From Prorocentrum cordatum (taxonomy: Eukaryota), in contig CAUYUJ010000179.1 of NCBI GenBank assembly GCA_963575745.1, positions 62,001 through 117,186 on the forward strand: 55,186 nt of DNA. The letters run 5' to 3'. This document shows positions 6,121 to 55,186 of the stretch, piece by piece. Position numbers and translations under genes: made by a program. How positions within the stretch are numbered: the first letter of the stretch is position 1; the number at the start of each line of letters is the position of its first letter. The notes under the pieces were generated by a model. The model was not told the origin of the DNA and made no database searches. It worked only from the letters and a program-made list of their open reading frames with translations.

Positions 6121-6124
6121 GCGC

Positions 6125-10804: not shown

Positions 10805-11019
10805 CAGGGGCGGGAAACGGAGGACCATGGTAAGTGGGGAGCGGAGGATCTAGGGGAGGTGGGGCAGGGAGGCGAAGGGGCTAGCGCGAGAAGCAGCAGA
10901 AGGATGGAGAGTAGGCTGAGGATGATGACTATGGTGGTGCTGGTGGTCGTGAAGGTGGTTGTGGTGATGATGTTGTTGACGTTGATGCTTATGTCGATGC
11001 CGATATCGATGTTGCTGCT

Positions 11020-25489: not shown

Positions 25490-25490
25490 A

Positions 25491-25693: not shown

Positions 25694-25852
25694 TACAGGG
25701 AGCCTGAAGGGATAGGCTCAAACACCCTGATTAGTCTTCGATCCCTAGCATCTGCATCCTGGGGGAGCTTGGGGGCTGGGTGGTGGGGGACGGGGAGATG
25801 CAGGAAGCTCAGGCCGCTTCTGTCGCCCGCTCCTTCTGGCCCCTCATGTCAG

Positions 25853-26916: not shown

Positions 26917-31930
<5,014 letters not shown>

Positions 31931-36730: not shown

Positions 36731-37147
36731 CGCACTGTTTGGGGTTCGCGCTGGCTAATGTTGAAAATTCTTTTTGGCAAGGGTGATGGGCCTGTTCGCA
36801 ACAGGAATTCTGCTGGCCCCCCCTTGCGTCCCTGGCAACAGCAATTTCACGTGATCGCTCGGTCCCCGCGCATGATCCAGATTTTACCGCATACTATTTT
36901 TTGTTCACAAGAATGGTTGGAATGTGATGGCATTGCACACCGCAGGCAAAATGCCGCCCCCAACAACACCAATGCAACGTGATCGCGGGGCGACCGCGCG
37001 TGATCCAGATACTGGTTCAAAGTGCCTTTTCTATTTTTTCGTGCAAGGGATGGTGGGCGGTGTTGGCGTTTGCACACATTGAGAAATATGCCGCCCCATG
37101 CCCTCCGTATGATCTAGCTTTTGGTTTACAGTTGACTTCGTATGTGT

Positions 37148-38753
37148 TTTTCCCAACCCTCCTGCGTTGGGTTCTCGTTTTGAATAGAGCACTGTGGTCT
37201 CCACTCCTCCCGCTCCCTCTCCTCCTCTCTTCGTTCCTGCTCTCCTCTCTTGCTTCCCTTCTCCTCCTCCCTTTGCTCCCCCTCTTGTCTCTTGCCTTTT
37301 ACGTCATCTCTGGGGGGCTGCGATCTGCGGAACTGTCACCACTTTCGAGGGCTGCTGGTGGGTCCAGCGGAGTGAGGCACCACGGGGATTCAGATTAGAC
37401 CTCGCCATCCCTGGGGGGGGGGGCTGCGATCTGTGAAACTGTCGCCACTTTCGAGGGCTGCTGGTGGGTCCAGCGGAGTGAGGCACCACGGGGATTCAGA
37501 TTAGACCTCGCCATCTCTGGGGGGGGGCTGCGATCTGTGAAACTGTCACCACTTTCGAGGGCTGCTGGTGGGTCCAGCGGAGTGAGGCACCACGGGGACT
37601 CAGATTAGACCTCGCCATCCCTGGGGGGCTGCGATCTGTGAAACTGTCGCCACTTTCGAGGGCTGCTGGTGGGTCCAGCGGAGTGAGGCACCACGGGGAC
37701 TCAGATTAGACCTCGCCATCTCTGGGGGGCTGCGATCTGTGAAACTGTCGCCACTTTCGAGGGCTGCTGGTGGGTCCAGCGGAGTGAGGCACCACGGGGG
37801 CTCATATTAGACCTCGCCATCTCTGGGGGGTGCGATCTGTGAAACTGTCGCCACTTTCGAGGCTGCTGGTGGGTCCAGCGGAGTGAGGCACCACGGGGAC
37901 TCAGATTAGACCTCGCCACCCCTGGGCGGCTGCGATCTGTGAAACTGTCGCCACTTTCGAGGGCTGCTGGTGGGTGGCCAGCGGAGTGAGGCACCACGGG
38001 GACTCAGATTCCTGACCACGAGCAATGCTCGCGTGCCCTTGCTCTGCGGTTCGTGCCATCGCTACCGTCCTTCGAGGTTGCCCATCGGGCCCTCTAACAA
38101 ATATATTCACGCATGCTGTCGGCCTGCAGCGCCGTACTGGTGGCTGAAGAAAGGCGCCTGCTCCGCGGTCTTAGCAGCGCGCGGGGCCGAGGCGTAATTG
38201 CCGACGCGCGCAAGCTTGCGCCTTCGCTAACCGCGCTTCCAAGTTGCCTGTCGGGCGCTCTATAACCACAGCCACCGCGGCATCGCAGAATTGGATTTCT
38301 GCTGAAAGAGTTCGAGCTACGCCTCGCTCGTTCCTTGCACTCTAAACAAGTTTTGTCATATGGAACTCTGCGACGGCATGGCGCAGGCAGCGCTGCGTGT
38401 TTAGCTCGCACTTGAAAAACGCGGCAGTCTTCTGTCTCCTCCCGCCACTTTCATCGTCGTCCTATTCCCCGCCTCACCTTCTCCATGCATGCTGCTGCTT
38501 CCGCGATGGCCTTTCGCCCCCCCCGCCCTCCATTCCATCCCTCTCCTGCCCCTCGTTCCCGTGCCCGTTCTTCTTCGATCCTGGGGCCTCAATCCTCGTT
38601 CTTTCGATCCTCGTCTTGTGAATCGTGCGACGCATGCGCATCCCATGTAGCTTGCACAGCAAATCGCCGCGTCTACACTGTCGTTGTTCCTGCTAATGCT
38701 GGCATAGTCCTCTTGCCATTTGATGCACGTGGGTTGGGTACGTCGCAGGGTAA
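37148..38753 (+). mobile_element. Family B (HINE/Helentron-like) element B1 carrying ~7 copies of a ~101-bp satellite
   Basis: 5' ttttcccaaccctcctgcgttgggttctcgttttgaa, CT-rich tract, satellite at 37305-38010, 3' gggttgggtacgtcgcagggtaa. Confidence 0.75.
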
Positions 38754-39672
38754 TTTCCCTACCCTCCTTGGTTGGGTATTCGTTTTGTATAGACCACAGT
38801 GGTCGCGTCCCTCCTTCTTCTCCCACCTCCCGCCTCCCGCCTCCTGTCTCCCGCGAAACCTCGCCGTCCCTGGGGGGGGGGCTGCGATCTGCGGAACTGT
38901 TGCCACTTTCGAGGGCTGCTGGTGGGTCCTGCGGAGTGAGGCACCGCGGGGATCGAGGTAGACCTCGCCGTCCCTGGGGGGCTGCGATCTGCGGAACTGT
39001 CGCCACTTTCGAGGGCTGCTGGTGGGTCCTGCGGAGTGAGGCACCGCGGGGATCTGAGGTAGACCTCACCGTCCCTGGGGGGCTGCGATCTGCGAACTTG
39101 TCGCCACTTTCGGGGGCTGCTGGTGGTTCCTGCGCACTGAGGCACCGCGTGGATCTGAGGTAAACCTCGCCGTCCCTGGGGGGCTGCGATCTGCGAACTT
39201 GTCGCCACTTACGGGGGCTGCTGGTGGTTCCTGCGGACTGAGGCGCCGCGGGGATCTGAGGTAGACCTCGCCGTCCCTGGGGGGCTGCGATCTGCAACGC
39301 TGTCGCCACTTTCGAGGGCCGCTGGTGGGCTCGCCACTTTCGAAGGCTGCTGGTGTGTCCAGCGGGGTGAGGCATTGCGCAGACCTGAGCGGGACCTCGT
39401 CGTCCTTGGGCGGCCATGCCATGTTGTTGTTGTTGCCCCGCCGACGTTTCAAGCCCCCTGCTCACAGTCTCCTTTTGGTCCTTGCGTCTTCCTTAGTGAC
39501 TCAGGGGTTCACTTAGTTACTCATCGTTTTTCCCTTGATTGGGGGCCTGCGAACCTTCCGAATGCCGCTCGCAGAAGTGTATGCGTCCATGGCACGTTGC
39601 CGCCTTCTGGTCAGATCTCCCAAGCTACTCCTGCCCCGCATTGCGCAGGGGTTGGGAATGTCGCCAGGGTAA
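38754..39672 (+). mobile_element. Family B element B2, head-to-tail with B1, carrying the ~101-bp satellite
   Basis: 5' tttccctaccctccttggttgggtattcgttttgta, CT tract, satellite at ~38857-39410, 3' gggttgggaatgtcgccagggtaa|ttt. Confidence 0.72.
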
Positions 39673-39971
39673 TTTGCAATGGATGGTGGGTGGGTGTCGT
39701 CATGGTCCGGGGTTTGTCGCCTGTCTGGGGGAGGGGAACATATTTACAAGGAGCAGTGGTAACCCTCTTCCCGAAGGGGAAGAAGTGGCAGAGGAAACGT
39801 CCTAAACCACCTACGCCCCAAAAGGTTGGTGGGATTATACGTGCTATCGATGTGCTGGCACGTGGGCGGCTTCCTCAAAATGGCGTCCCCTGGTCTGTGA
39901 TAGCCCATGGCGCTGAACACGAAGACAGCCGACAGCCATTTGTGGATGACCCACTGGCCAGCCCTCGTCAG

Positions 39972-40280
39972 CTTTACCGCCTGTGCCAGCGCGTGCGAGA
40001 GAGCGGGACAGTGGCAGCACGCTCTGCTGCTGCTCGAGGAATTCGTTGGGGCAGGGTTGGAGCCAGACGCCATCGTCTACAGCTCCGTGCTGGTGGCTTG
40101 CGAGAGGGGTGGGCAGTGGCGGCGGGTGTTGTCGCTGCTCAGAGATATGGTGGAAGCGAGCGTGGACCAGGACGCCACCTGCTTCCGCGCCGGGCTGTGC
40201 GCGTGCGAGGCTGGTGGGCGGCTGCAGGCGCTGTCGCTGCTCAGCGACGTGGACTCGCTCACCGCAGGGTTTCTGTCTCG
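39972..40280 (+). CDS. Isolated PPR exon (3 motifs)
   Basis: FTACASACERAGQWQHALLLLEEFVGAGLEPDAIVYSSVLVACERGGQW..., bounded by cgtcag| and the canonical donor |gtgagt. Confidence 0.85.
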
Positions 40281-40754
40281 GTGAGTCCGGCTGCTGCTCG
40301 CTCGAACGTCGAGTCTCGGTGGTTGGGGTGGGATGGTCAGTCCCCTGTCTGCCTGTGATTCTCCTGCATTTTTGTGGGCCGCCCAGCTTGCCTTCGCAAT
40401 CCTCCTCCTTCTTTCTGCTGCTGCTCTTTCTGTTTCTCCTCCTCCTCCTCCTCCTCCTCCTCCTCCTCCTCTATCCCTCTTCCTTGCAAATAGCTCAGAC
40501 GCGTCGATGGAGCGGGCCGGGCTTTTCGCCTGAGACTTCCTCGCCGTTTATATGATAATGCAAATCAGCTTTTGCAACATTTCCACTGATTGATTGCGGG
40601 TCGTTTTTAAAGTGTGGCTCTCGACTTGCTTTGAAACATTTTCAAGGATGGATGGTTGTTGTTTTTCACAATGTGGTTCTCGGTTTGACGCCGCGCATAT
40701 TCGTTTTCAAAGTTCCCAACGTTTCAAGGATAGTTTTTCTTCCTCCAAAAAAGT

Positions 40755-42575
40755 TCGCAGGGCCCAAGCATATGCACTTGTTAATCTCGCCGTTGTGGGT
40801 ATCGCCTTCGGTGGAGCTCTTTGTGGGTATCGCCGTTGTGGGTATCGCCTTCGGCACGAAGCGAGTAAAGGGTGTGCCAAAATGGGGCGGGGACGCATGC
40901 GGGCTCGGTGGCGCTCCATCTGGGGCCACGAAACGTGTGAGGGGTGTGCCAAATTGGAGGTGGCGGCATGCGAACGCCACCACTGGGGCCTTCGGTGGAG
41001 CTCTCCATGGATCCGAACGCCGCCACTGAGGCCTTCGGTGGCTCCCCATGGGGCCACGAAGCGCTGTGCTGGGTGGGGGAAGCGCATGCGGACAGCGCCA
41101 CTGGTGCCTTCGGTGGAACTCCCGCCACTGAGGCTTTCGGTGGCTCCCCATGAGGCCACGAAGCGCTGCATTGGGTGGGGGAAACGCATGTGGACACCGC
41201 CACTGGGGCCTTCTGTGGAGCTCCTCAGAGGGCCACGAAGCGCTGTAATGGGCCGAGGAACGGCATGCGGACACCGCCACTGGGGCCTGCGGTAAAGCTC
41301 CCTATGAGGCCACGAAGTGCTGTACTGGTTGGCGTAAACACATGCGGACACCGCCACTGGGGCCCTCGGTGGAGCTCCCCATGGGGCCACGACGCGCTGT
41401 ACCGTATGGGGAAACGGCATGCGGACACCGCCATTGGGGCGTTCGGTGGAGCTCCCCATGGGGCCACGAACGTTGCATTGGCTGGGGAAAACGCATGCGG
41501 ACATCGCCACTGAGGTCTTCGGTGGAGCTCTCTGTGGGGCCACGAAGCGTTGTACTGGGTAGGGCAAACGCATGCGGACACTGCCACTGGGGCCTTCGGT
41601 GGAGCTCCCTATGGGGCCACGAAACGCGTGCTGGGCGGGGGAAACGCTTGCGAACACCGCCGCTGGGGCCTTCGGTGGAGCTCCCTATGTGGCCACGAAA
41701 CGTTGTGCTGGGTGGGGGAAGCGCATGCGAATCATGCCACTGGAGCCTTCGGTGGAGCTCCCTATGGGGCCACGACGCGCGTGAGGAGTGTGCCAAAGTG
41801 GACTCGGGGGCGGCATGCGAATCATGCCACTGGGGCGTTCGGTGGAGCTCCCTATGGGGCCACGAAGCGTGCCAAAGTGGAGGGGGGCGGCATGCGAATC
41901 ATGCCACTGAGGCCTTCGGTGGAGCTCCCTATGGGGCCACGAAGCGTGTGAGGGGTGAGCCAAAGTGGAGGGTGGCGGCATGCGAATCTTGCATGTCACT
42001 GGGGCCTTCGGTGAAGCTCCCTATGGGGCCACGAAGCATGTGAGGGGTGTGCCAAAGTGGGGGCGGCATGCGAATCATGCCACTGGGGCCTTCGGCGGAG
42101 CTCCCTATGGGGCCACGAAGCGTGTGAGGGGTGTGCCAAAGTGGAGGGGGAACGGCATGCGAATCAAGCCACTGGGGCCTTCGGTGGAGCTCCCTATGGG
42201 GCCACGAAGCGTGTGAGGAGTGTGCCAAAGTGGACTGGGGGGCGGCATACGAATCATGCCGCTTGTGCCAAAGTGGAGGGGGGCGGCATGCGAATCATGC
42301 CACTGAGGCCTTCGGTGGAGCTCCCTATGGGGCCACGAAACGTGTGAGGTGTGAGCCAACGTGGAGGGTGGCGGCATGCGAATCATGCAAATGCAGCCTT
42401 CGGTGGAGCTCCCTATGGGGCCACGAGGCGTGTGAGGGGTGTGCCACAGTGAGGGGGGTGACAGGAGGAGGGAAGAGGGGGAGGCGGAGGAGGAGGAGGG
42501 AAGGAGGAGAGAAGATCTGGAGATGCGGGGTCTCTTCAAACAGAGGACCCAACTCAACACAGGATGGCTGGTTGT
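40755..42575 (-). mobile_element. Family B element B3 (degenerate ends) with a mixed ~77/~89-bp satellite
   Basis: Reverse-orientation 5' motif tctcttcaaacagaggacccaac...caggatggctgg (42531-42571), GAG tract, satellite core ccttcggtggagctccctatggggccacgaa, 3' motif cccaagcatatgcacttgttaat (40763-40785). Confidence 0.7.
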
Positions 42576-43365
42576 TCTCCTTTAAACAATCAGGGTTTTG
42601 GTGTAATTGTGCTGCTCTCGCATTAGCGCCGCTCGTACTCGCTTCAAACGTGTCCAACAGTTTCAAGGATTTGTACGGTCGAAGCCCCTGAAATTGTGTT
42701 CTGGCACGGTCCAGGATCGTCAGGACCTAACAGCCATTCTGATTCACGGTGTTGAAGTGCCAGGAGCGGCGTTCTGGCACGATTTCAGATTGTCAGGACG
42801 CAGCAGTCACGTTGATCCGCTGCGCGGAAGTCCCAGGACATGTGTTCTGGCACGGCTGAGTATTCTCAGGCGGTTGTCTTCTAATGGGCTACTTCCCACA
42901 GCGAACCTAACTTTCTTCAGGGACCTATGGAGAGGGAGCTTGGAGGGAGGGTGTATTGCAACATCGTTGATGCGTCTTGGATTTGCACTGGTCCTTCTCC
43001 TCCTTCTCCTCCTCCTCCTCCTTCCCTCCTGTTTCTCATCCATCTCCTTGTCGTCACACGGAAGCCTCAGGGGACCCAGACCTCTGGGCGCCTCCGACAA
43101 GAATCGCGGCCAGATCTGTTCCGCCACTGTCGGCGTGTTGAGCGGTCTCTGGCATCCCAGGATGGCGGATCAAGGCTGTGGATGAGAGGAAAACGAGGTC
43201 CCTTGGAAGAGGTCGAGAGATCCAACGACTCACGCCGTGGAAGAAACGACGACGTCGAAGGTCTGGGGTGGACCTTGTCGGCATCGTCGTCGTCATTATC
43301 CTCCTTCTGGCCCGCCTAGACTCGTCAGCCTCGAGCTAGTCGGAGCCAGATGAGGAAACATGAGC

Positions 43366-43445
43366 AGAGAGAGATAGAGAGAGAGAGAGAGAGAGCGAGA
43401 CAGCGAGAGAGAGAGAGAGAGGGAGGGAGGGAGGGAGGGCGGGAG
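43366..43445. repeat. (GA)n/(GGGA)n microsatellite
   Basis: Direct reading. Confidence 0.9.
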
Positions 43446-44640
43446 GGAGCTGCGTCCTTAATTTGTTTGGGCCGCCCCTCGCGCAAATTTCAACTGCCAC
43501 CACCTCCCCCCGTCTGCCGCCTCCTCCCCCAATCCGTCGTCCCGTCTCCCACCTCCCTACTCTCTCCTCCTTCTCTCCCTTCCACCTCGTACTCCACATC
43601 CTTTCTCCTTCGCCTCCTTAAATCTGCCACTACATCTGCTCATCTCCCTTCTCTTCTTCGTCTCCTTTGGCTTCCACCAGCAGCGACTCACTGGTGGATC
43701 GTGATCCCTTTTCCTCGTCTGCAGCTGCGGTGCATGTTGACTGCAGTGCCCCCCCAGTTGTTTGCACTTGTGGCCGCAGAACCGCTGCTGTACCCGTCAG
43801 TGGCGACACTGCTTCTCATCCCTCGCGTCGTCATCCTGATCGTCCTCAGCCCCTGTCTTCCGTAGTCACTTTATCTCGAGTGCAGGACCCGTTCGCGTCA
43901 GAGAGAAAGAGCCACTCGTGCATCCGAGCCCTTCATGTCGCCCTGCCTGGGCATTCCCGTGCAGGACTCTGCAGCCCACGACGGCCGAGGCCTTCCTTGC
44001 AGCAAGCCCGAGTCGCCGTGCGCAGTTACAGCAGGGGAGGCCGCGCATCTAGAGCCAAGGCTCTGCTGCTTCCTCGCTTACTCCTCCCTTCCTCCCCCTC
44101 CTCTTCATGTTCTCTCCCCTCCCTCACTCCCTCCTTCCATCCCTCCCCCGTTGTCTCCTATCCTCCTCCAAGGAGAACCCGGAAGGCCGAGCTGCGCGAC
44201 GACTCCACCACAGTTTCCGAATTGTCTGGGGAGAAACTGGCTGACGACCGGCCGTGGAACACAAGCGACTGTTGCCCGCTCCCAGAAGAGGACCTGGCGA
44301 CGGTGGTGCCGAAGGAGATCTTCGAGAGGAGGACCCTGGGAGGATCTCGGAGCATCTTGTCTCTTTCTTGATCTCCTCGGCGGCCCTTGTGGCCACGGAT
44401 GGACGCGGCTCGAAGAATTTGCTCGGATGGACTCCTGGAGGGCTCCAGGGACAGATCTTTGGCGGAGATTGGCTGGAGGAGGAAGGAAGGTGAGATGAGA
44501 GGCGAGAGGGACCATTCGCTTGTTAAGGCAAGCTATGAATTAAGATCAGAGTAAGGGGGCCGAACGGTCATTTTTAACGAACAGGTGAGAGCGGTCATTC
44601 TGAACGATCATGCGAGCAGGTAAGAGCGAACAGCCTTAAC

Positions 44641-44714
44641 ATGTTATTGTTGCTGCTGCTGTTGTGGTTGTTGTTGCTGCTGTTTTCTGTTGTTGTTGTC
44701 AATGTAGTTGTTGC

Positions 44715-44750
<36 letters not shown>

Positions 44751-44757
44751 CGTTGTT

Positions 44758-44808
<51 letters not shown>

Positions 44809-45125
44809 GCTGCTGCTGCTGCTGCTGTTGTTGTTAATGTTGTTGTCGTCGTCGTCGTCGTCGTCGTCGTCGTTGTTGTTGTTGTTGTTGTTGTGGTTGT
44901 TGCTGTTGTTGTTATTGTTGTTGTTGTTGTTGTGGTTGTTGTTGTTTTTGTATGTATATTTGTAGTCGCAGTAGTTGTTGTTGTTGTTGTAGTTGTTGTA
45001 GTTGTTGTAGTCGTTGTAGTTGTTGTAGTTGTTGTAGTTGTTGTTGTTGTTGTTGTTGTTGTGGTGGTGGTGGTGGTGGTGGTGGTGGTGGTGGTGGCGG
45101 TGGTGGTGGTGGTTGTTGTTGTTGC

Positions 45126-45156
<31 letters not shown>

Positions 45157-45157
45157 A
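44641..45157. repeat. (GTT)n/(GGT)n microsatellite
   Basis: Direct reading; preceded by the family C end motif gagcgaacagccttaac. Confidence 0.95.
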
Positions 45158-45189
45158 GTTGATCTCCCCTCACCGATAACCATTGCATT

Positions 45190-45569
45190 TTTCCCAACCG
45201 TCCTGTGGTGTTGGGTCCTCGTTTTGAAGAGAGCGCCCCGCGTTCCTCCTCCTTCCGCTGCCCCCTCCCTCCCTCCTCCTCCTCCTCCTCCTCCTCCTCC
45301 CCCTCCTCCTCCTCCTTCTCCTCCTCCTCCTCCTCCTCCTCCCCTCCTCCTCCTCTCATCATCATCATCAGCATCATCATCATCATCATCGTCATCATTA
45401 TCATCATCATCAGCAGCAGCAGCATCACCATCGTCATCATCACTATCATCGCCATCATCGTCATCGCCATCGTCATCATTATCATCGTTACTGTCATAGT
45501 CGTCACCATCATCACCATCATGGTCGTCATCCTCTTTCTCATCATCATCATGGCCGTCATCATCATCAT

Positions 45570-45619
<50 letters not shown>

Positions 45620-46775
45620 GCATCGTCATCCTCATCATCATTATCATCATCATTTTCGTCATCATCATCACTATCACAATCACCATCACCATCACCATCG
45701 CCATCATCACAATCATCGTTATCGTCTTCGTCGCCCCCTCACACGTTTCGTGGCCACATAGGGAGCGCCACCCAAGGTCCCAGTGGCGCAGTCCGCATGG
45801 CGGCGCCGCCCCATCTTGGCACACCCCGCACACGTTTCGTGGCCCAGTAGGGAGCTCCGCCTAAGGTCCCAGTGGCGCAGTCCGCATGGCGTCGCCGCCC
45901 GATTTTGGCACACCCTCACACGTTTCGTGGCACCATAGGGAGCTCCACCTAAGGTCCCAGTGACACGTCCGCATGGCGGCGCCGCCCCATCTTGGCACAC
46001 CCCTCACACGTTTCGTGTCCCCACAGGGAGCTCCACCTAAGGCTCCAGTGGCGCAGTCCGCATGGCGGCGCCGCCCCATCTTGGCACACCCTTCACACGT
46101 TTCGTGGAGGCGCAGTCCGCATGGCGGCGCCGCCGGATTTTGGCACACCCCTCACTATTTTCGTGGCCCAGTAGGGAGCTCCACTTAAGGTCCCAGTGGC
46201 GCAGTCCGCATGGCGGCGCCGCCCCATCTTGGCGCACCCTTCACACGTTTCGTGGCCCCATAGGGAGCTCCACCCAAGGTCCCAGTGGCGCAGTCTGCAT
46301 GGCGGCGCCGCCCCATCTTGGCACACCCCTCACACGTTTCGTGGCACCATAGGGAGCTCCACCCGAGGTCTCAGTGGCGCAGTCCGCATGGCGGTGCCGC
46401 CCCAACCCCTTCACACGTTTCGTGGCCCCATAGGGAGCTCCACCTCAGGTCCCAGTGGCGCAGTCCTCATGGCGGCGCCGCCCGATTTTGGCACACCCCT
46501 TACATTTTTCGTGCCCTCATAGGGAGCTCCACCTACGGTCTCAGTGGCGCAGTCCGCATGGCAGTGCCGTCCCATTTTGTAACACCCCTCACACGTTTCG
46601 TGGCCCCAGAGAGGGGCTCTACATCAGGCGCCGGTAGCAGCGCCCGCATGGCGGCCCCGCCCCATTTCGGCACACTCTTCACGCGCTTCGTGGCCCCATA
46701 AGGAGATCCACCGAAGGCGATACTAACAACGGCGGTATTCACAACTGCAGATGGTTGGGCCCTTCACCAGGCTAA
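45190..46775 (+). mobile_element. Family B element B4 with (CCT)n, (ATC)n and an ~89-bp satellite
   Basis: 5' ttttcccaaccgtcctgtggtgttgggtcctcgttttgaagag, satellite at ~45735-46720, 3' gcggtattcacaactgcagatggttgggcccttcaccaggctaa|tt. Confidence 0.85.
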
Positions 46776-46900
46776 TTCCATCAAGGTGCTTTTCCTGGGG
46801 CTCGCACCCGGTTTTTTACCATGGCAAGTGGGGTGTCACCAAACTGTGCCCCTGGCCCCCTGTTTACAACAACAACAACGGCTCCCATACCTTCACAGTT

Positions 46901-49852
46901 TTTTTCCAACCACCCTGTGGTGTTGGGTCCTCGTTTTGAAGGGACAGCGCCCCGCGTCACTCCTCCTCTCCTCTCCTCTCCTCTCATCTCCTCTCCTCTT
47001 CCTCCCCCTCCTCCTCCCCTCCTCCCTCCTCACATCCGCCTTGTCACCTCCCTGCGTTTCACCCACTCAGTAAAGCGATTCGTGGCCCCATAGGGAGCTC
47101 CACCGAAGGCTCCAGTGGCAGGGTCCGCATGCGTCAATGCCACTCAGGACAGCGTTTCGTGGCTCCATAGGGAGCTCCACCGAAGGCTCCAGTGGCACAG
47201 GCCGCCTGCGTCAACGCAGCCCAGGACATCGTTTCGTGGCCTCACCTGGAGCTCCACCGAAGGCTCCAGCGGCATAGGCCGCATGCGTTAACGCCACCCA
47301 GGACAGCGTTTCGTGGCCTCATAGGGAGCTCCACCGAAGGCTTCAGTGGCAGGGTCCGCATGCGTCAACGCCACCCAGGACAGCGTTTCGTGGCCCCATA
47401 GGGAGCTCCACCGAATGCTCCAGTGGCAGGGTCCGCATGCGTCAGCGCCACCCAGGACAGCGTTTCGTGGCCCGCTCCACCGAAGGCTCCAGTGGCAGGG
47501 TCCGCATGCGTCAACGCCACCCAGGACAGCGTTTCCCGCATAGGGAGCTCCACCGAAGGCTCTAGTGGCAGGGCCCGCACGCGTCAACGCCACCAAGGAC
47601 AGCGCTTTCTGGCCCCATAGGGAGCTCCACCGAAGGTTCCAGTGGCACAGGCCGCGTGCGTCAACGCCACCCAGGACAGCGTTTCGTGGCCCCATAGGGA
47701 GCTCCACCGAAGGCTCCAGTGGCAGGGTCCGCATGCGTCAACGCCACCCAGGACAGCGTTTCGTGGCCGCATCGGGAGCTCCACCGAAGGCTCTAGTGGC
47801 ACAGGCCGCATGCGTCAACGCCACCCAGGACAGCGCTTCGTGGTCCCCATATGAAGCTCCGTCGAAGGCTCCAGTGGCACAGGCCGTATGCGTCAACGCC
47901 ACCCAGGACAGCGTTTCGTGGCCCCATAGGGAGCTCCGCCGAAAGCTTCAGTAGCACAGGCCGCATGCGTCAACGCCACCCGTGAAAGGTTTTCGTGGCC
48001 CCGCAGGGAGCTCCACCGAAGGCTACAGTGGCACAGGCCGCATGCGTCAACGCCACCCAGGACAGCGCTTCGTGGCCTCATAGGGAGCTCCACCGAAGGC
48101 TCCAGTACCACAGGTCACATGCGCCAATGCCGCCCAGGACAGCGCTTCGTGGCCCGATGGGGAGCTCCACCGAAGGCTCCAGTGGCACAGGCCGCACGCG
48201 TCAACGCCACCCAGGACAGCGCTTCGTGGCTTTAAAGGGAGCTCCACCGAAGTCTCCACTGGCACAGGCCGCCTGCGTCAACGCCACCCAGGACAGCGTT
48301 TCGTGGCCCCATAGGGAGCTCCACCGAAGGCTCCAGTAGCACAGGCCGCATGCGTCAACGCCACCCAGGACAGCGCTTCGTGGCCCCATAGGGAGCTCCA
48401 CCGAAGGCTCCAGTGGCACAGGCCGCATGCGTCAACGCCACCCAGGACAGCGCGTTAACGCCACCCAGGACAGCGCTCTCGGGAGCTCCACCGAAGGTTC
48501 CAGGGGCACAGGCCGCATGTGCCAACGCTATCCAGGACAGCGTTTCGTGGTTCCTTATCGAGCTCCACCGAAGGCTTCAGTGGCACAGGCCGCCTGCGTC
48601 AACGCCGCCCAGGACAGCGCTTCGTGGCCCCATATGGAGCTCCACCGGAAGCTCCAGTGGCACAGGCCGCATGCGTCAACGCCACCCAGGACAGCGTTTC
48701 GTGGCCCCCATCCACCGAAGGCTCCAGTGGCACAGGCCGCCTGCGTCAACGCCACCCAGGACAGCGTTTCGTGGCCCCCATAGGGAGCTCCACCGAAGGC
48801 TCCATCCAGTGGCACAGGCCGCATGCGTCAACGCCACCCAGGACAGCGTTTCGTGGCCCCATAGGGAGCTCCACCCAAGGCTGCAGTGGCACAGGCCGCC
48901 TGCGTCAACGCCACCCACGACAACGCTTCGTGGCCCCACAGGGAGCTCCACCGAAGGCTCCAGTAGCACAGGCCGCCTGCGTCAACGTCGCCCAGGACAG
49001 CGTTTCGTGGCCGCATAGGGAGCTCCAGGCTCCAGTGGCACAGGCCGCATGCGTCAACGCCACCCAGGACAGCGTTTCGTGTCCCCCATAGGGAGCTCCA
49101 CCGAAGGCTCCAGTGGCACAGGCCGCATGCGTCAACGCCACCCAGGACAGCGTTTCGTGACCCCATAGGGAGCTCCACCGAAGGCTCCAGTGGCACAGGC
49201 CGCATGCGTCAACGCCACCCAGGACAGCGCTTCGTGGCCCCACAGGGAGCTCCACCGAAGGCTCCAGTAGCACAGGCCGCCTGCGTCAACGTCGCCCAGG
49301 ACAGCGTTTCGTGGCCGCATAGGGAGCTCCAGGCTCCAGTGGCACAGGCCGCATGCGTCAACGCCACCCAGGACAGCGCTTCGTGTCCCCCATAGGGAGC
49401 TCCACCGAAGGCTCCAGTGGCACAGGCCGCATGCGTTAACGCCATCCAGGACAGCGCTTCGCGGCCCCATAGGGAGCTCCACCGAAGGCTCCAGTGGCAC
49501 ACGCCGCATGCGTCAACACCACCCAGAACAGCGTTTCCTGGCCCCACCTGGAGCTCCACCGTTGGCTCCAGTGGCACGTGCCGCATGCGACAACGCCACG
49601 CAGGACAGCGTTTCGTGGCCCCATAGGGAGCTCCACCGAAGGCTCCAGTGGCACAGGCTGCATGCGCCAACGCCACCCAGGACAGCGCTTCGTGGCCTCA
49701 TGGGGAGCTCCACAGAAGGCTCCAGTGGCACAGGCCGCATGCGTCAATGCCACCCAGGACAGTGTTTCGTGGCCCCATAGGGACCTCCATCGAAACCGGT
49801 ACCCACCATGCGGTATTCGCAATTGCATATGGTTGGGTTTTTCGTCAGGCAA
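46901..49852 (+). mobile_element. Family B element B5 with a ~2.7-kb array of the 77-bp satellite
   Basis: 5' ttttccaaccaccctgtggtgttgggtcctcgttttgaag, CT tract, satellite at ~47075-49790, 3' gcggtattcgcaattgcatatggttgggtttttcgtcaggcaa. Confidence 0.85.
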
Positions 49853-50255
49853 GTTTTCCACAAATCGCGCTACCGCGTGGGAATTTCTAACATTCTATAG
49901 AGGAATCGCACTCTCGCGTGGGACTTCTTCACCATTTATTCAGACGTCGCGCCCTCGACACTCCGGAGTCGCACTCTCGCTGTGGATTTTCTTGCGGTTT
50001 ATTGGGGAATCGCGCTATCGTTTGAGAATTCCTCGCGATTCCTGCAGACGCATGCTTCAGCAACCCGCGTGCTCAACCTGACCGCTGGGGCCTGCCTTTC
50101 CGACCCGCCCGTTAGGGTCTACCCGCCCGATGTACCCGTCTGGTTCTGCGACGTGTTTTCAGCTCAGGATTCCTTAGCCCAGATTCTTTATTCAGGATTG
50201 CTCCCTTAGTAAGGATTCTTTACTAGGGTTTCCTGGTAAGGATTCCTTTCTAAAA

Positions 50256-51292
50256 TTCTTTACGCTTCGCGTATCCCCACCAGCCCATCTCAAAACAGCA
50301 ACTCTTGCGAAGCATGCCGAAAGTCGTGTTTTTCAGGCGTGTTTCCGCCTGCCCCCGCATATCTCCCCTGTTCCTCCTTCCTCCCGCCTCCTTGTACATC
50401 CTCCTTGTGGTGGGAGCGGGAGAAGGACGAGGCGGAGGAGGAGGGAGAGAAAGCGCTCCTCGTGGTTTGAGTCGTTTGGGGTTTCTTGTCCTGGTGTGAG
50501 TCGTTCGGGCCCTTCTTCCTGGTGTGAATCGTTCGGGCTCTTCGTGATGTGAGTCGTTCGGGCTCTTCGTCCTGGTGTGAGTCGTTCGGGCTTCTCGTGG
50601 TGTGAGTTGTTCGGGCCCCTCGTCGTCGTGTGAGTCGTTCGGGCCCCTCCTCCTGGTGTGACTCGTTCGGGCTCCTCGTGGTGTGAGTCGTTCGGGGCCC
50701 TCGTCGTGGTGTGAGTCGTTTTGGGAGCCTCTTGGAGGCCTTTTGGGGCGTCTTCGGGGCCTCTTGGCGGCCCCAGGGGCTTCTAGGAGCGTCTTGGGTG
50801 CCTTGGGGGAGCCTCTTCGGGCCTCTTGGGAGCCTCTTGGAGGCCGTTTGGGGCGTCTTGGGGGCCTCTTGGCGGCTCCAGGGGCTTCCAGGAGCGTCTT
50901 GGGTGCCTCGGGGGAGCCTCTTGGGGCCTCTTGGGGGCCTCTTGGGGGCATCTTGGGGGCCTCTTGGAGGCCTCTTGGGGGCTCTTGGAGGCCTCTTGGA
51001 GGCCTCTTGGAGGGGTCTGGGAGGAATCTTGGGGCCATCTGTCGGGCGATCGATCACAGATGGGGGGAGCACTTTTCTCCCTCCCCCCGTCGGGGCCAGA
51101 ATCCTCGTGAGGGGTGTCGTTTTTTAGCCCTCCGAGGAGTCGAAAAAGACCCCTCCGGCGACCCGCGGAGGGACCTTTCCAGGCCCAGGGGGAGGGGGTG
51201 GGGGAGGGGTAAACCCCTCCCCGAAGGGGAAGAAGGGGGGTTGAGAACAGAGCGGGCTCTCTAAACCACTCACGCCCAAAGGGCTGGTGGGA
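50256..51292 (-). mobile_element. Family A element
   Basis: Left: ttctt, hairpin tacgc-ttc-gcgta, IR cccaccagccc (50276-50286). Right: cacgcc plus gggctggtggga (51281-51292). Interior has a ~29-bp gtgtgagtcgttcgggc repeat and ggcctcttgg cargo. Confidence 0.8.
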
Positions 51293-51485
51293 TTTCATGA
51301 ACACGGATTTCTTATTATGGGCCTTGTAGTAAGGATTCCTTAGTCAGGGTCCGTTAGTCAGGATTCCTGATTAACGATTCCTTAGTATGGACTCTTCACT
51401 GAGGTTCCTTGAGTACTGATTCTTCACCACAGGGGTTCTCAGTAGGGATTCCTGACCAAGGTTCCCTGAGTAAGGATTTGTTAAA

Positions 51486-52411
51486 TTAGCCTGGCGAAAT
51501 ACCCAACCATAAGCAATTGTTAATACCGCAATTGTGGGCATCATCTTCGGTGGAGCTCCCTATGGGGCCACGAACCGTGTGAGGGGTGCGCCAAAATGGG
51601 GCGGGGCCGCCATGCGGACCCTGCCACTGGGGCCTTCGGTGGAGCTCCCTATGGGGCCACGAACCGTGTGAGGGGTGCGCCAAAATGGGGCGGGGCCGCC
51701 ATGCGGACCCTGCCACTGGGGCCTTCGGTGGAGCTCCCTATGGGGCCACGAACCGTGTGAGGGGTGCGCCAAAATGGGGCGGGGCCGCCATGCGGACCCT
51801 GCCACTGGGGCCTTCGGTGGAGCTCCCTATGGGGCCACGAACCGTGTGAGGGGTGCGCCAAAATGCGGGGCCGCCATGCGGACCCTGCCACTGGGGCCTT
51901 CGGTGGAGCTCCCTATGGGGCCACGAACCGTGTGAGGGGTGCGCCCCAATGCGGGGCCGCCATGCGGACCCTGCCACTGGGGCCTTCGGTGGAGCTCCCT
52001 ATGGGGCCACGAACCGTGTGAGGGGTGCGCCAAAATGCGGGGCCGCCATGCGGACCCTGCCACTGGGGCCTTCGGTGGAGCTCCCTATGGGGCCACGAAC
52101 CGTGTGAGGGGTGCGCCAAAATGCGGGGCCGCCATGCGGACCCTGCCACTGGGGCCTTCGGTGGAGCTCCCTATGGGGCCACGAACCGTGTGAGGGGTGC
52201 GCCAAAATGCGGGGCCGCCATGCGGACCCTGCCACTGGGGCCTTCGGTGGAGCTCCCTATGGGGCCACGGAACGCGTGAGGGATGTGCCGAAACAGAGAC
52301 ATGCGGAGGGCAGAGGCAAGGGGGAGGGAGGGGGCAGCGGGAGGAAGGAGGAGGAACGCGGGGCACCGTCTCTTCAAAACGAGGACCCAACACCACAGGA
52401 TGGTTGGGAAA
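51486..52411 (-). mobile_element. Family B element B6 with a homogeneous 89-bp then 86-bp satellite (~8 copies)
   Basis: ttagcctggcgaaatacccaaccat at left and aaacgaggacccaacaccacaggatggttgggaaaa at right. ORF periodicity is 89 then 86 nt. Confidence 0.88.
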
Positions 52412-53375
52412 AAAGGGTTTTTGTGTACGGGTTCCTTATTCACACTCCCTGAGTAAAGATTCTCTACTTTGGCCTAATATTCTTTATTGAGGGTGCCCCA
52501 ATACGGGTTCTTTATTAATGTTCCCGTAGGAAGGTTGTTTTCGACGGGTTCTTGAGTAGGGATTCCTTATTCGGGTTTCCTGAGTAAGAATTGTTTATCA
52601 CAAGGTTCTTTCGTAGGAATGCTTCAGGAAGGTTATCTTATTCAGGTTTCTTGACTCAGGTTTCCTTAGTAGGGATTCCTTACCTAGCTGTTCTTTCACA
52701 GATTTTTGTATTCAGGGTTCCTTAGTAAAAAGGGTTCCTACTTACGGCTGCATTAGTAAGGATTCTCCACGACGGGTTCCTTAGTAGGTATTCCTTATTA
52801 CGGTTTTCTTATGAGGGATTCTTCCCTAAGGGTTCTTTAGGAAGGATTCTAGTGTAAGAATACCTTGGTGAGGATTCTTCGATTTAAGGTTTCCTGAGAA
52901 CAGGATTGCTGATTAAGGTTTCCGTAGGAAGGATTCTTTATTGAGGTTTCCTTGGTAAGGATTCTCTAGTAAGCGTGCAGTTGATGCCCTGCCTGCGTGG
53001 GGGCGACATGGCCTCCCCAGAGGGGGCGTCAGAAACCCGAGGTGGGGGGAATAGGTGGGCCCGTTTTTTTGCCCTGCGTTCAAAAATCTGGCCAGAAGGC
53101 TGTGAGGTCTTCACAACGTTCGTATGCGGCCGCGCAGTCAAGCCTCCACAAAGGGAATTCTATTGCAATCCTCCTCTGCAAAACGGGATCATATTGAAAT
53201 CCTCCTTACAAGGGATCTTGTTGTAATCCCCCACAAACGGAATCGCATTGTAATCATCAACGCAAGAGATCCTGTTGTAGTCATCCACGAAAGGAATCCT
53301 ATCGTAGAATGGAGGGGTGGGCGCCGCAGGAACGAAAGGAGCGAAACACAGGAACATAAAGGACAAACAAGATAC

Positions 53376-55186
53376 TTAGCCTGACGAAGAACCCAGCCAT
53401 CTGTCGTTGCGAGTACCGCACTGTGGGTACCGGTTTCGGTGGAGCTCCCTGACGCACGCGCCTAGTGCCACTGGGGCCTTCGGTGGAGCTCGCTATGGGG
53501 CACCGAAGCGCTGTCCTGGGTGGCGGTGACGCATGCGGCCTGTGCCACTGGAGCCTTCGGTGGAGCTCCCTATGGGGCCGCGAAGCGCTGTAGTGGGTGG
53601 CGGTGACGCATGCGGCCTGTGCCAGTGGAGCCTTCGGTGGAGCTCCCTATGGGGCCGCGAAGCGCTGTAGTGGGTGGCGGTGACGCATGCGGCCTGTGCC
53701 AGTGGAGCCTTCGGTGGAGCTCCCTATGGGGCCACGAAGCGGTGTCCTGGGTGGCGTTGACGCATGCGGCTTGTGCCACTGGAGCCTTCGGTGGAGCTCC
53801 GTTTGGGGCGCCGAAGCGCTGTCCTGGGTGGCGTTGGCGCATGCGGCCTGTGCCAATGGAGCTTCCGGTGGAGCTCGCTATGGGGCGCCGAAGCGCTGTC
53901 TTGGGTGGCGGTGACGCATGCGGCCTGTGCCACTGGAGCCTTTGTTGGAATTCGCTATGGGACCACGAAACGCTGCCCTGGGTGGCGGTGGCGCATGCGG
54001 CCTGTGCCACTGGAGCCTTCGGTGGAGCTCCCTATGGGGCGCCGAAGCGCTGTCCTGGGTGGCGTTGGCGCATGCGGCCTGTGCCACTGGAGCCTTCGTT
54101 GGAGCTCCCTATGGGGCCACGGAGCGCTGTCCTGGGTGGCGTTGACGCATGCGGCCTGTGCCAGTGGAGTCTTCGTTGGAGCTCGCTATGGGGCCACGGA
54201 GCGTTGTCCTGGGTGGCGTTGACGCATGCGGCCTGTGCCAGTGGAGCCTTCGGTGGAGCTCCCTATGGGGCGCCGAAGCGCTGTCCTGGGTGGCGTTGGC
54301 GCATGCGGCCTGTGCCAGTGGAGCCTTCGGTGGAGCTCCCTATGGGGCGCCGAAGCGCTGTCCTGGGTGGCGTTGACGCATGCGGCCTGTGCCAGTGGAG
54401 CCTTCGGTGGAGCTCCCTATGGGGCGCCGAAGCGCTGTCCTGGGTGGCGTTGACGCATGCGGCCTGTGCCAGTGGAGCCTTCGGTGGAGCTCGCTATGGG
54501 GCGCCGAAGCGCTGTCCTGGGTGGCGTTGGCGCATGCGGCCTGTGCCAGTGGAGCCTTCGGTGGAGCTCCCTATGGGGCGCCGAAGCGCTGTCCTGGGTG
54601 GCGTTGGCGCATGCGGCCTGTGCCAGTGGAGCCTTCGGTGCTGATGGGGCGCCGAAGCGCTGTTGGGGTGGCGTTGACCGGCGTGCCAGTGGAGCCTTCG
54701 GTGCAGCTCGCTAAAGCGCTGTCGTGGGTGGCGTTGACGCATGCGGCCTGTGCCAGTGGAGCCTTCGGTGGAGCTCCCTATGGGGCGCCGAAGCGCTGTC
54801 CTGGGTAGCGTTGGCGCATGCGGCCTGTGCCAGTGGAGCCTTCGATGGAGCTCCCTATGGGGCGCCGAAGCGCTGTCCTGGGTGGCGTTGGCGCATGCGG
54901 CCTGTGCCAGTGGAGCTCCCTATGGGGCGCCGAAGCGATGTCCTGGGTGGCGTTGACGCATGCGGCCTGTGCCAGTGGAGCCTTCGGTGCAGCTCCCTAT
55001 GGGGCGCCGAAGCGCTGTCCTGGGTGGCGTTGGCGCACGCGGCTAGTGCCTCTGGAGCCTTCGGTGGAGCTCGCTATGGGGCGCCGAAGCGCTGTCCTGG
55101 GTGGCGTTGACGCATGCGGCCTGTGCCAGTGGAGCCTTCGGTGGAGCTCGCTATGGGGCGCCGAAGCGCTGTCCTGGGTGGCGTTG
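53376..55186 (-). mobile_element. Family B element B7 with the 77-bp satellite, truncated by the window end
   Basis: ttagcctgacgaagaacccagccatctgtcgttgcgagtaccgc...ggtaccggtttcggtgg matches the reverse complement of the B5 3' end. Period is 77 nt (ORFs 53610, 53687, 53764). Confidence 0.85.

What the first reader, a model, noticed from the sequence alone, without database searches (positions are those of the whole stretch)
37148..55186. Family B: satellite-delivery elements; every 77/86/89/101-bp array lies between the same two termini
Seen: seven elements in 18 kb, in both orientations, share one layout. It is T-run, CCCAACC subterminal IR, a nearby GTTGGG able to fold back on it, tcctcgttttgaa, a pyrimidine microsatellite, a central tandem array, GGTTGGG, then ..cagg(c/g)taa and TT. 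The IRs co-vary (cccaaccc/gggttggg in B1; cccaaccat/atggttggg in B6). Established: this order matches DINE-1/HINE non-autonomous Helentrons, which seed satellites in Drosophila and oysters. Inference: an equivalent system disperses and amplifies the dominant satellites of this genome. I do not recall it being described for a dinoflagellate, but cannot check.
Basis: partly seen in the sequence, partly recalled or inferred. Interest (0 to 1): 0.8.

Follow-up and report, generated by a model that had tools for sequence, protein, structure and literature searches.

The report
Satellite-carrying Helitron2-like elements in a dinoflagellate
Seven copies of a small non-coding mobile element, built like the rolling-circle "HINE/DINE-1" elements of flies and oysters, each carry a block of satellite DNA in this dinoflagellate sequence, which suggests how such satellites get scattered through the genome.

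Summary
Window 37147-55186 contains seven elements in both orientations. All 86 core matches of the 77/86/89-bp satellite and all 13 of the 101-bp satellite lie inside them, always on the element strand. Profiles of the two ends find 6 5' ends and 7 3' ends, and none in 1-37146.

The layout is: T-run, CCCAACC, a GTTGGG 8-11 nt downstream that can fold back on it, a conserved core, a pyrimidine microsatellite, a tandem array, a 3' GGTTGGG, then 16-19 nt ending CAGGCTAATT.

- **Vehicle and cargo:** nine further copies in marine metagenome contigs include a 121-bp element with both ends and no array.
- **Ends:** they are asymmetric, and no target-site duplication was found (6 of 6).
- **Tandem copies:** head-to-tail copies occur.
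- **Host:** the neighbouring PPR genes are dinoflagellate-like.

The layout matches published DINE-1/HINE and Helitron2 definitions except that no 3' palindrome follows the 3' repeat. No Rep/helicase gene and no true empty site could be examined, because no genome is held.

Verdict: probably a non-autonomous Helitron2/Helentron-like rolling-circle element (confidence about 0.6). It is a new member of a known kind, apparently undescribed in dinoflagellates.

The parts
37147..38756 (+). Element B1. T5 37147-37151; CCCAACC 37152-37158; GTTGGG core from 37166; pyrimidine microsatellite about 37201-37300; 101-bp array 37305-38010; 721-bp unique insert 38011-38731; 3' GGTTGGG 38732-38738; tail ending CAGGGTAATTT at 38756.
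38754..39675 (+). Element B2, head-to-tail on B1 with TTT 38754-38756 shared. CCCTACC 38757-38763; GTTGGG core from 38771; microsatellite; 101-bp array 38858-39329; 320-bp insert 39330-39649 (first ~85 bp a degenerate 101-bp unit, the rest ~235 bp unique); GGTTGGG 39650-39656; CAGGGTAATTT ends at 39675.
40745..42580 (-). Element B3, with degenerate ends. 5' core 42534-42553; purine (on the + strand) microsatellite 42463-42509; 89-type array 41869-42458, then 77-type array 41122-41780 in element order; 15-bp GATACCCACAACGGC repeats 40787-40849; 3' CCCAAGC 40763-40769.
45188..46777 (+). Element B4. T5 45188-45192; CCCAACC 45193-45199; core 45210-45229; (TCC)n 45244-45355; (TCA)n 45356-45717; 89-bp array 45735-46717; 3' module 46718-46777 with GGTTGGG 46753-46759 and CAGGCTAATT 46768-46777.
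   Evidence: a contig of another copy stops aligning at 46778 (X7 record 27)
46899..49855 (+). Element B5. T7; (T)CCAACC; core 46922-46941; pyrimidine microsatellite 46960-47031; 77-bp array x35.6 at 47063-49794; 3' module with GGTTGGG 49831-49837 and CAGGCAAGTT to about 49855.
51484..52414 (-). Element B6. T6 52409-52414; 9-nt repeat pair 52400-52408 and 51502-51510 (100% complementary); core 52372-52391; microsatellite about 52300-52355; 86-bp array x8.6 at 51545-52293; 3' end CAGGCTAATT 51484-51493. It sits inside a 14/28-bp GGATTCCTTAGTAA array.
   Evidence: a contig starts at 51484 (X20 record 24)
53374..55186 (-). Element B7, 3' part only. CAGGCTAAGT 53374-53383; GGCTGGG; 3' module to about 53450; 77-bp array 53450-55186 running off the window.

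Best explanation
These are non-autonomous members of the Helitron2/Helentron branch of rolling-circle (HUH Rep/helicase) transposons. They are HINE/DINE-1-like elements of a dinoflagellate.

Each element is a short left module, a cargo and a right module.
- Left module: T-run, the 7-9-nt repeat CCCAACC(AT), its fold-back partner GTTGGG, a conserved core TCCTCGTTTTGAAGAGA..GCGCCCCGCG, and a pyrimidine microsatellite.
- Cargo: usually a tandem array.
- Right module: ..GATACCCACAA..GCGGTATTCACAATTGCAT-ATGGTTGGG, then 16-19 nt ending CAGGCTAATT.

Inferred mechanism. A RepHel encoded elsewhere nicks at the T-rich 5' end and peels off one strand. It stops when the 3' repeat and tail are reached. The single strand is then inserted at a T-rich site without duplicating the target. 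Every transposition plants a starter array, which then grows or shrinks locally by slippage or unequal exchange. Read-through, or insertion into the T-run at a resident copy's end, gives head-to-tail copies.

Shown: the architecture, asymmetric ends, high copy number, dispersal with unrelated flanks, interchangeable cargo, and lack of TSD.

Inferred: the rolling-circle chemistry, the RepHel partner, and the TT target.
For: 1. **Ends.** 12 of 13 5' ends (6 window, 7 metagenome) have a CCCAAC-type arm and GTTGGG with an 8-11-nt loop, straight after 0-7 T. The 5 window ends that were folded all fold that way as DNA. The 3' repeat is complementary to the 5' repeat over 7-9 nt in 7 of 7 complete elements, with 0-2 mismatches. 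It lies 16-19 nt from a sharply defined 3' end.

2. **3' boundary.** Contigs of other copies stop aligning exactly at 38756, 46778 and 51484.

3. **Asymmetry.** The ends are asymmetric, and no longer TIR exists.

4. **No TSD.** The best direct match at the junctions is 2-5 nt in 6 of 6 elements, against 0-5 nt in 30 mismatched flank pairs. The flanks of B6 continue a 14-bp host repeat with no duplication.

5. **Module order and fixed array orientation.** 86 of 86 and 13 of 13 core matches lie on the element strand. All arrays of the 77-89 family end in the same phase (..GGAGCTCCACCGAA | GCGATACCCACAA) in B3-B7 and L012.

6. **Cargo is interchangeable.** The 101-bp unit is unrelated to the 77/86/89 family: score 15-17 against a shuffle mean of 15.8. 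B1 and B2 carry unrelated inserts. L004 is a bare 121-bp element. In L008/L013, L007 and L011 the DNA after the 5' end is non-satellite, but their 3' ends were not found, so they may be truncated rather than carrying other cargo. L010 carries a 128-bp variant.

7. **Consecutive arrays.** The 89-then-77 order is shared by B3 and L012, as in oyster Cg_HINE_10_13.

8. **Head-to-tail copies.** B1 to B2 with 0 bp between them; L008 preceded by ..GGCAAGTT; L005 preceded by a second 3' end 55 bp upstream.

9. **High copy number.** Summed contig depth is 1e4-1.4e5 on the arrays, and 9,391 at the B2 5' repeat in run X1. Unique bins and unique contigs give 0-17 and 2-4.

10. **Literature.** The features equal the definitions of DINE-1/HINE, Cg_HINE and Helitron2. 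A Helitron2-like RepHel is reported from Symbiodinium microadriaticum. The window's PPR ORF has its best hits in dinoflagellates.
Against: - No palindrome or stem-loop lies between the 3' repeat and the 3' end in any of 9 3' ends. The 8 that were folded share no hairpin there and have z between -1.6 and +0.6; the ninth was read only. Both HINE and Helitron2 definitions require one.
- The repeats are short, 7-9 nt against the published 8-15.
- The 5' hairpin is weak (-3.6 to -7.5 kcal/mol, z -0.7 to -1.6) and shows no compensatory change. Three of 13 copies have it broken (B2 and L007 by a mismatch, B3 lost).
- The metagenome copies were selected by an exact 19-mer that includes GTTGGG, so its invariance is partly ascertainment.
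- No Rep, helicase or endonuclease domain was found in 76 window ORFs or 25 locus ORFs.
- No true empty site was found, so the TT target is only suggested by T at both junctions. The B6 pseudo-empty site puts C, not T, to the left of the T-run.
- In L005 the spacers after two successive 3' ends are homologous. That could mean local tandem duplication rather than transposition for that locus.
Confidence: 0.6

Rival explanations
1. A mobile element moved by some other enzyme that acts on single-stranded or hairpin ends. Candidates are an IS200/IS605-like Y1 HUH transposase, a tyrosine recombinase (Crypton-like), or an enzyme not yet described. On this reading the HINE-like layout is convergent.
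For: The expected 3' palindrome is missing. Instead, several 3' ends can pair an upstream CCCA-box or CCCTTT with the 3' GGTTGGG (B2, B5, B6, L004). Both ends then look like same-strand hairpins of the form CCCAAC..GTTGGG followed by T(A/C)(T/C)TCG. No TSD was found. No RepHel was seen.
Against: The 3' hairpins are not conserved between subfamilies and are no better than shuffles. Every other feature fits the published Helitron2/HINE definitions. Variant positions of the stem-loop are already known within that group (PMC11417382 passages). No candidate enzyme was seen either.
Confidence: 0.17
2. A SINE-like retroposon read on the opposite strand. It would begin AATTAGCCTG.. and end ..GGTTGGG followed by a short poly-A tail, copied by a LINE reverse transcriptase.
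For: One end is a homopolymer run of variable length (0-7), which is A on the opposite strand. Copy number is very high.
Against: No TSD in 6 of 6 elements. The run is very short, absent in L010 and only 2 nt in L005 and L012. There is no tRNA, 7SL or 5S likeness: ARAGORN found 0 and Rfam found 0 at gathering score, with only microsatellite noise at E up to 5. The conserved inverted repeat and fold-back have no role in retroposition. No RT ORF was found.
Confidence: 0.07
3. A cut-and-paste (DDE) MITE whose CCCAACC/GGTTGGG repeats are the transposase binding sites, with TT or TTT as the target duplication.
For: There is a 7-9-nt inverted repeat near both ends, and T residues at both junctions.
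Against: The ends are not symmetric. The 3' repeat is followed by 16-19 conserved nt that have no inverted counterpart at the 5' end. The number of T differs between the two ends and between copies. No transposase ORF was found.
Confidence: 0.06
4. Not mobile at all. The 'elements' would be units of a locally duplicated and inverted higher-order repeat, and the shared 'termini' would be the edges of an old satellite block.
For: Seven copies lie in 18 kb. Head-to-tail pairs occur, and L005 has homologous spacers.
Against: Flanks of different copies share nothing but microsatellites. Copies occur on 8 independent metagenome contigs with other flanks. Contigs diverge exactly at the 3' end. The same ends hold unrelated cargo or none. 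B6 interrupts an unrelated 14-bp array.
Confidence: 0.05

Closest known systems
HINE / DINE-1-like non-autonomous Helentrons (Drosophila DINE-1, mite HINE-Mo, oyster Cg_HINE)
   Same: The order of modules is the same: a 5' subterminal repeat a few nt from a T-rich 5' end, a complementary IR 8-11 nt downstream, a conserved core, a microsatellite, central tandem repeats in a fixed orientation, a 3' subterminal repeat and a short right flank. Also shared are a variable number of terminal T, no TSD, related flanks with unrelated repeats, and two consecutive arrays.
   Different: No palindrome follows the 3' repeat. The repeats are 7-9 nt, not 11-13. The 3' repeat lies 16-19 nt from the end, not 38-60. 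The monomers are 77-101 bp (128 in L010), not 140-180. There is no sequence similarity to those families, and the host is a dinoflagellate. An endonuclease-bearing partner is unknown.
Helitron2 (Bao and Jurka 2013; e.g. Chlamydomonas Helitron-1N1_CRe) and the Helitron2-like RepHel element of Symbiodinium microadriaticum (Heringer and Kuhn 2022)
   Same: A 5' T; a 5' repeat 0-2 nt from the end that pairs with downstream bases into a 5' hairpin; a 3' repeat about 20 nt from the 3' end; insertion next to a T-run without TSD. A dinoflagellate RepHel of this branch exists in print.
   Different: The 3' hairpin is not found. I could not see the termini of the Symbiodinium element, which are not given in the passages read, so identity of the ends is untested. 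Satellite cargo is not part of the Helitron2 description.
Canonical Helitron (HLE1)
   Same: Asymmetric ends and no TSD. The 3' end reads CTAA (= CTRR) followed by T in B4, B6, B7, L004 and L005 (5 of 9 ends). Head-to-tail copies occur.
   Different: Its defining features are absent here: there is no 5' TC after a host A (the left neighbours are G, A, G, C ..) and no GC-rich hairpin 10-12 nt before CTRR. Conversely, this element has subterminal inverted repeats and a 5' hairpin, which HLE1 lacks.

Membership tests
HLE2 non-autonomous elements (HINE / DINE-1-like / Helitron2-N) | Short 5' subterminal/asymmetric inverted repeat within 0-4 nt of a 5' end that begins with T | tested here: met
   CCCAACC-type repeat directly after 0-7 T in 12 of 13 5' ends (B3 is degenerate; L010 has no T).
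HLE2 non-autonomous elements (HINE / DINE-1-like / Helitron2-N) | IR downstream of, and complementary to, the 5' repeat (5' hairpin) | tested here: met
   GTTGGG lies 8-11 nt downstream in 12 of 13 ends. The 5 window ends folded as DNA all form the stem, but z is only -0.7 to -1.6. There is no compensatory change. GTTGGG was part of the search pattern for the metagenome copies.
HLE2 non-autonomous elements (HINE / DINE-1-like / Helitron2-N) | 3' subterminal repeat complementary to the 5' repeat | tested here: met
   7-9 nt complementary in 7 of 7 complete elements with 0-2 mismatches. B6 is 9 of 9 (I5); L004 is 9 of 9. It lies 16-19 nt from the 3' end, against the published 20-30 or 38-60.
HLE2 non-autonomous elements (HINE / DINE-1-like / Helitron2-N) | Palindrome/stem-loop between the 3' repeat and the 3' end | tested here: not met
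   The 16-19-nt tail T.TTCG.CAGGCTAATT holds no palindrome in 9 of 9 ends. The 8 folded ends share no hairpin there; the ninth was read. Hairpins that use the 3' repeat itself as one arm occur in some copies only.
HLE2 non-autonomous elements (HINE / DINE-1-like / Helitron2-N) | Microsatellite in the left flank and central tandem repeats in a fixed orientation | tested here: met
   A pyrimidine microsatellite is present in 6 of 6 window left flanks and is read in L002, L005, L007, L008/L013, L010, L011 and L012; L004 has none. Arrays lie on the element strand in 86 of 86 and 13 of 13 core matches.
HLE2 non-autonomous elements (HINE / DINE-1-like / Helitron2-N) | Insertion between T and T (T-rich target) without target-site duplication | tested here: inconclusive
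   No TSD in 6 of 6 elements. T occurs at both junctions in most copies. No real empty site was found. The B6 pseudo-empty site in a 14-bp repeat suggests C|TT.
HLE2 non-autonomous elements (HINE / DINE-1-like / Helitron2-N) | Autonomous partner encoding Rep/helicase (with or without endonuclease) with the same ends | not testable with these tools
   No genome is held. No Rep/Hel domain was found in 76 window ORFs or 25 locus ORFs.
Canonical Helitron (HLE1) | 5' TC after host A; 3' hairpin plus CTRR before host T | tested here: not met
   The left neighbours are G, A, G, C, G, G. CTAA+T occurs in 5 of 9 3' ends, but no hairpin precedes it. Subterminal inverted repeats are present, which HLE1 lacks.
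SINE / non-LTR retroposon | Pol III-type head (tRNA, 7SL, 5S), A-rich tail, variable TSD | tested here: not met
   ARAGORN found 0 and Rfam found 0 at gathering score. The run is 0-7 nt only. No TSD.
TIR (DDE) MITE | Inverted repeats at the very termini and a fixed TSD | tested here: not met
   The 3' repeat is internal to a conserved 16-19-nt tail that has no inverted copy at the 5' end. No TSD.

The most novel reading that the evidence does not exclude
A Helitron2-like rolling-circle system with a non-canonical right end is the main generator and disperser of satellite DNA in this dinoflagellate lineage. The right end has no 3' palindrome; instead both ends carry the same-strand motif CCCAAC..GTTGGG-T.TTCG. 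Thousands of copies seed 77-128-bp arrays that grow into the genome's most abundant repeats. The element family is shared among related dinoflagellates in the sea.
Probability: 0.3. Interest if true: 0.75.

Novelty: new member of a known kind. Interest (0 to 1): 0.58.

Why it matters
Dinoflagellate genomes are huge and repeat-rich, and their repeats are mostly filed as 'unknown'. If these elements are what they look like, they would give a concrete origin and spreading mechanism for very abundant tandem repeats in a dinoflagellate. They would extend the link between transposons and satellite DNA, known from flies, mites and bivalves, to an alveolate. They would also supply the missing non-autonomous side of the single Helitron2-like RepHel reported from Symbiodinium. 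In practice, the two short end motifs would let annotators classify a large share of unclassified repeats, and would flag assembly-breaking arrays.

Tried and rejected
- **Earlier findings of this scan.** Nothing for this genome or by sequence.
- **Other collections.** Scans of genome contigs and viral contigs with the satellite core and the 5' core found 0 matches.
- **Chance hits.** Four of the 13 metagenome loci (L001, L003, L006, L009) are chance matches of the 19-mer in unrelated DNA. I dropped them.
- **L011.** Its 1895-aa ORF just after a 5' end fragment was checked as a possible transposase. It has no Pfam domain and looks like a Cys-repeat host protein. Rejected as a partner.
- **Read laying.** All four runs are contigs, so starts, ends and empty alleles could not be read. 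The listed joints are array-length or repeat artefacts, and none skips a whole element. Depth is summed over contigs and multi-mapping places, so I use it only qualitatively. The parts without cover are not evidence.
- **Paralogous empty sites.** Sought by BLAST of 20 flanks against the window and loci. The only hits were microsatellites and L005's upstream 3' end.
- **Possible 8-nt flank coincidence.** CCATTGCA left of B4 and its reverse complement right of B2. It is not shared by other copies and was treated as chance.
- **RNA origin of the satellite units.** Rfam at E up to 5 on 37000-47400 gave only microsatellite noise.
- **Resemblance of the 86/89-bp unit to the dinoflagellate spliced leader.** There are 7 matches with up to 3 mismatches against 1.2 expected, but 6 of them are copies of one satellite. 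Not significant.

Full report
**What is there**

TRF finds seven tandem-array blocks in 37148-55186: 101 bp at 37305-38010 and at 38858-39329; 77 and 89 bp at 41020-42458; 89 bp at 45735-46717; 77 bp at 47063-49794; 86 bp at 51545-52293; and 77 bp from 53450 to the window end.

I call the elements B1 to B7; coordinates are under 'parts'.

- The left module is a run of T, then CCCAACC(A/G/C)TCCTGTGGTGTTGGGTCCTCGTTTTGAAGAGA..GCGCCCCGCG, then a pyrimidine microsatellite.
- The right module of the 77-89 subfamily is ..CCACCGAAG-GCGATACCCACAA..GCGGTATTCACAATTGCAT-ATGGTTGGG-T.TTTCG.CAGGCTAATT.
- B1 and B2 share only the last 25 nt or so of the right module.

nhmmer profiles of the two modules find 6 left and 7 right ends in the window, all in this region and none in 1-37146. 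B7's left end lies beyond the window, and B3's ends are decayed.

**Vehicle and cargo**

The 77, 86 and 89-bp units are variants of one satellite. They share about 56 nt and differ in a 21- or 33-nt segment. The 101-bp unit is unrelated, scoring 15-17 against a shuffle mean of 15.8. B1 and B2 also carry a 721-nt insert and a 320-nt insert (of which about 235 nt is unique); the unique parts match nothing else in the window or loci.

One scan of metagenome contigs with the 19-nt 5' core returned 13 loci. Four are chance matches. Nine (eight independent, since L008 and L013 are the same locus) are real left ends.
- L012 carries 89-bp then 77-bp arrays, the same order as B3.
- L005 carries an 89-bp array and a right end.
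- L010 carries a 128-bp variant.
- In L008/L013, L007 and L011 the left end is followed by non-satellite DNA. Their right ends were not found, so they may be truncated copies.
- L004 is a complete 121-bp element with both ends, no microsatellite and no array.

So the two ends form a unit of their own, and the arrays ride inside it. In B3-B7 and L012 the last monomer always stops in the same phase before GCGATACCCACAA. The junction between array and right module therefore arose once and was then copied.

**Signs of mobility**

- Flanks of different copies share nothing except microsatellites.
- B6 interrupts an unrelated 14/28-bp repeat. Its left and right flanks continue that repeat without any duplicated stretch.
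- Contigs of public runs laid on the region stop aligning exactly at 38756, 46778 and 51484, the right ends of B1, B4 and B6, and then run on into other sequence.
- Summed contig depth is 1e4 to 1.4e5 on the arrays, and 9,391 at position 38760 in the B2 left repeat in run X1. Unique bins give 0-17 and unique contigs 2-4. The tool warns that this is not a copy number, so I take it only as 'very many copies'.

**Which mechanism**

The ends are asymmetric. The only inverted repeat is the 7-9-nt CCCAACC(AT)/(AT)GGTTGGG pair. The right repeat is followed by a conserved 16-19-nt tail that has no inverted counterpart at the left end.

No target-site duplication is seen. The best direct match at the junctions is 2-5 nt in six elements, against 0-5 nt in 30 mismatched flank pairs.

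Both junctions are T-rich, and the number of T at the left end varies from 0 to 7.

Head-to-tail copies occur. B1 runs straight into B2 (..CAGGGTAATTT-CCCTACCC..). L008 is preceded by ..GGCAAGTT. L005 is preceded, 55 nt upstream, by another right end.

These are the features of the Helitron2/Helentron branch of rolling-circle transposons.
- Bao and Jurka define Helitron2 by a 5' T, 8-15-nt asymmetric terminal inverted repeats, a 5' hairpin made by the 5' repeat with downstream bases, a 3' repeat 20-30 nt from the end, and insertion after TTTT without duplication (passages of PMC3627910).
- Thomas et al. describe DINE-1/HINE with subterminal repeats, an IR 3-22 nt from the 5' repeat, a core, a microsatellite, central repeats, a variable number of terminal T and no target modification (passages of PMC4067079).
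- Vojvoda Zeljko et al. describe oyster Cg_HINE with the same modules, a fixed array orientation, related flanks with unrelated repeats, and two consecutive arrays (passages of PMC7492417).

**What does not fit**

- All three descriptions place a palindrome after the 3' repeat. The tail here has none in 9 of 9 ends. Eight were folded as DNA and share no hairpin there, with z from -1.6 to +0.6; the ninth, L005's upstream end, was only read.
- Some copies can instead pair an upstream CCCA-box (B2, B5, B6) or CCCTTT (L004) with the 3' repeat itself, but this is not conserved.
- The 5' hairpin is weak (z -0.7 to -1.6) and rests on conservation alone. GTTGGG never varies, partly because it was in my search pattern, and three of 13 copies have the stem broken (B2 and L007 by a mismatch, B3 lost).
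It is not significant.
- No Rep, helicase, endonuclease, reverse transcriptase or transposase domain was found in 76 window ORFs or 25 locus ORFs. Only PPR genes turned up.
- No genome is held, so neither the partner nor true empty sites could be sought.

**Rivals**

- A SINE read on the other strand would explain the homopolymer run. But there is no TSD, no tRNA/7SL/5S likeness, and the run is too short.
- A DDE MITE is at odds with the asymmetric tail.
- A purely local duplication is at odds with the unrelated flanks, the metagenome copies and the bare 121-bp element. L005's homologous spacers do show that local tandem duplication also happens.
- Another hairpin-recognising enzyme cannot be excluded, given the missing 3' palindrome.

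**Host and novelty**

The 678-aa PPR ORF at 23990-26023 has its best matches in Polarella, Symbiodinium, Noctiluca, Effrenium and Prorocentrum (29-57% identity). A dinoflagellate origin is therefore supported.

A Helitron2-like RepHel without the endonuclease domain has been reported from Symbiodinium microadriaticum (passages of PMC8788227), so a suitable enzyme family exists in the group.

Full-text searches for Helitron + dinoflagellate, Symbiodiniaceae + Helitron and dinoflagellate + satellite DNA + transposable listed no paper describing HINE-like satellite carriers in dinoflagellates. I saw listings only, and subscription journals are not covered.

I therefore file the finding as a new member of a known kind: non-autonomous Helitron2/Helentron-like elements that carry satellites, with an atypical right end. 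Confidence in the mechanism is about 0.6.

Noticed in passing
window 5145-5240 (+): GCAGATGGTTGGGT, a 13-nt match to the B4/B7 3' repeat region, is followed by GCTTCCCGCGGAGG and T9. Then 40 nt on comes TTTTTCCAAGCC, just upstream of the 260-bp array at 5362-6122. This may be the right end of one element and the left end of a related family that carries the 228/256/260-bp arrays.
   Followed up: partly
window 39720-39840 and 51190-51300; L007 2930-2975: Another repeat family shares ..CCCCTCCCCGAAGGGGAAGAAG..CTAAACCAC..ACGCCCCAAAAGG(T/C)TGGTGGGATT. It lies next to 11-bp CTCTTGGGGCC arrays, which occur at eight or more places in the window. Summed contig depth there is up to about 9e4. It lies within 50-180 nt of the ends of B2, B6 and the L007 copy.
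   Followed up: no
L005 (oriented) 1520-1600 and 2800-2900: Two successive element right ends are each followed by homologous spacers of about 35-55 nt, and then by a left end (the second one decayed). Here the whole element plus spacer is repeated in tandem.
   Followed up: partly
window 40560-40740 and 42600-42700: B3 is flanked on both sides by repeats of about 100 bp (TGTGG.TCTCG..TTTCAAA..CCAAC.GTTTCAAGGAT). They contain GGATGGATGGTTGTTG, which resembles the reverse complement of the 5' repeat region. They may be relics of older ends.
   Followed up: no
window 41954-42276, 51585-51777 (- strand) and the 86/89-bp units generally: The 86/89-bp monomer contains CCATTTTGGC(A/G)CA. This resembles the core of the dinoflagellate spliced leader, a motif I recalled from memory. 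There were 7 matches with up to 3 mismatches against 1.2 expected, but 6 are copies of one satellite, so it is not significant.
   Followed up: partly
L011 335-6019 (+): An open frame of 1895 aa starts 300 nt after a 5' end fragment at the contig start. It holds about seven Cys-rich repeats (C.R..D..F..W....DC..AC....H..WC..F.F......C.LYD.C) and long Q-rich tracts, with no Pfam match.
   Followed up: partly
window 26917-31929: A 5-kb (AGT)n microsatellite of about 1,674 units with strong GC skew.
   Followed up: no
window 7708-11044 and 23990-26480 (+): PPR-repeat ORFs (Pfam PPR_2, E down to 6e-35). The one searched (23990-26023) has its best database relatives in dinoflagellates at 29-57% identity. 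No closer match is on record.
   Followed up: partly
window 50150-50260, 51328-51478, 52420-52973, 53150-53310: Degenerate 14/28-bp GGATTCCTTAGTAA arrays surround B6 and reach towards B7. They served as a pseudo-empty site for B6.
   Followed up: partly
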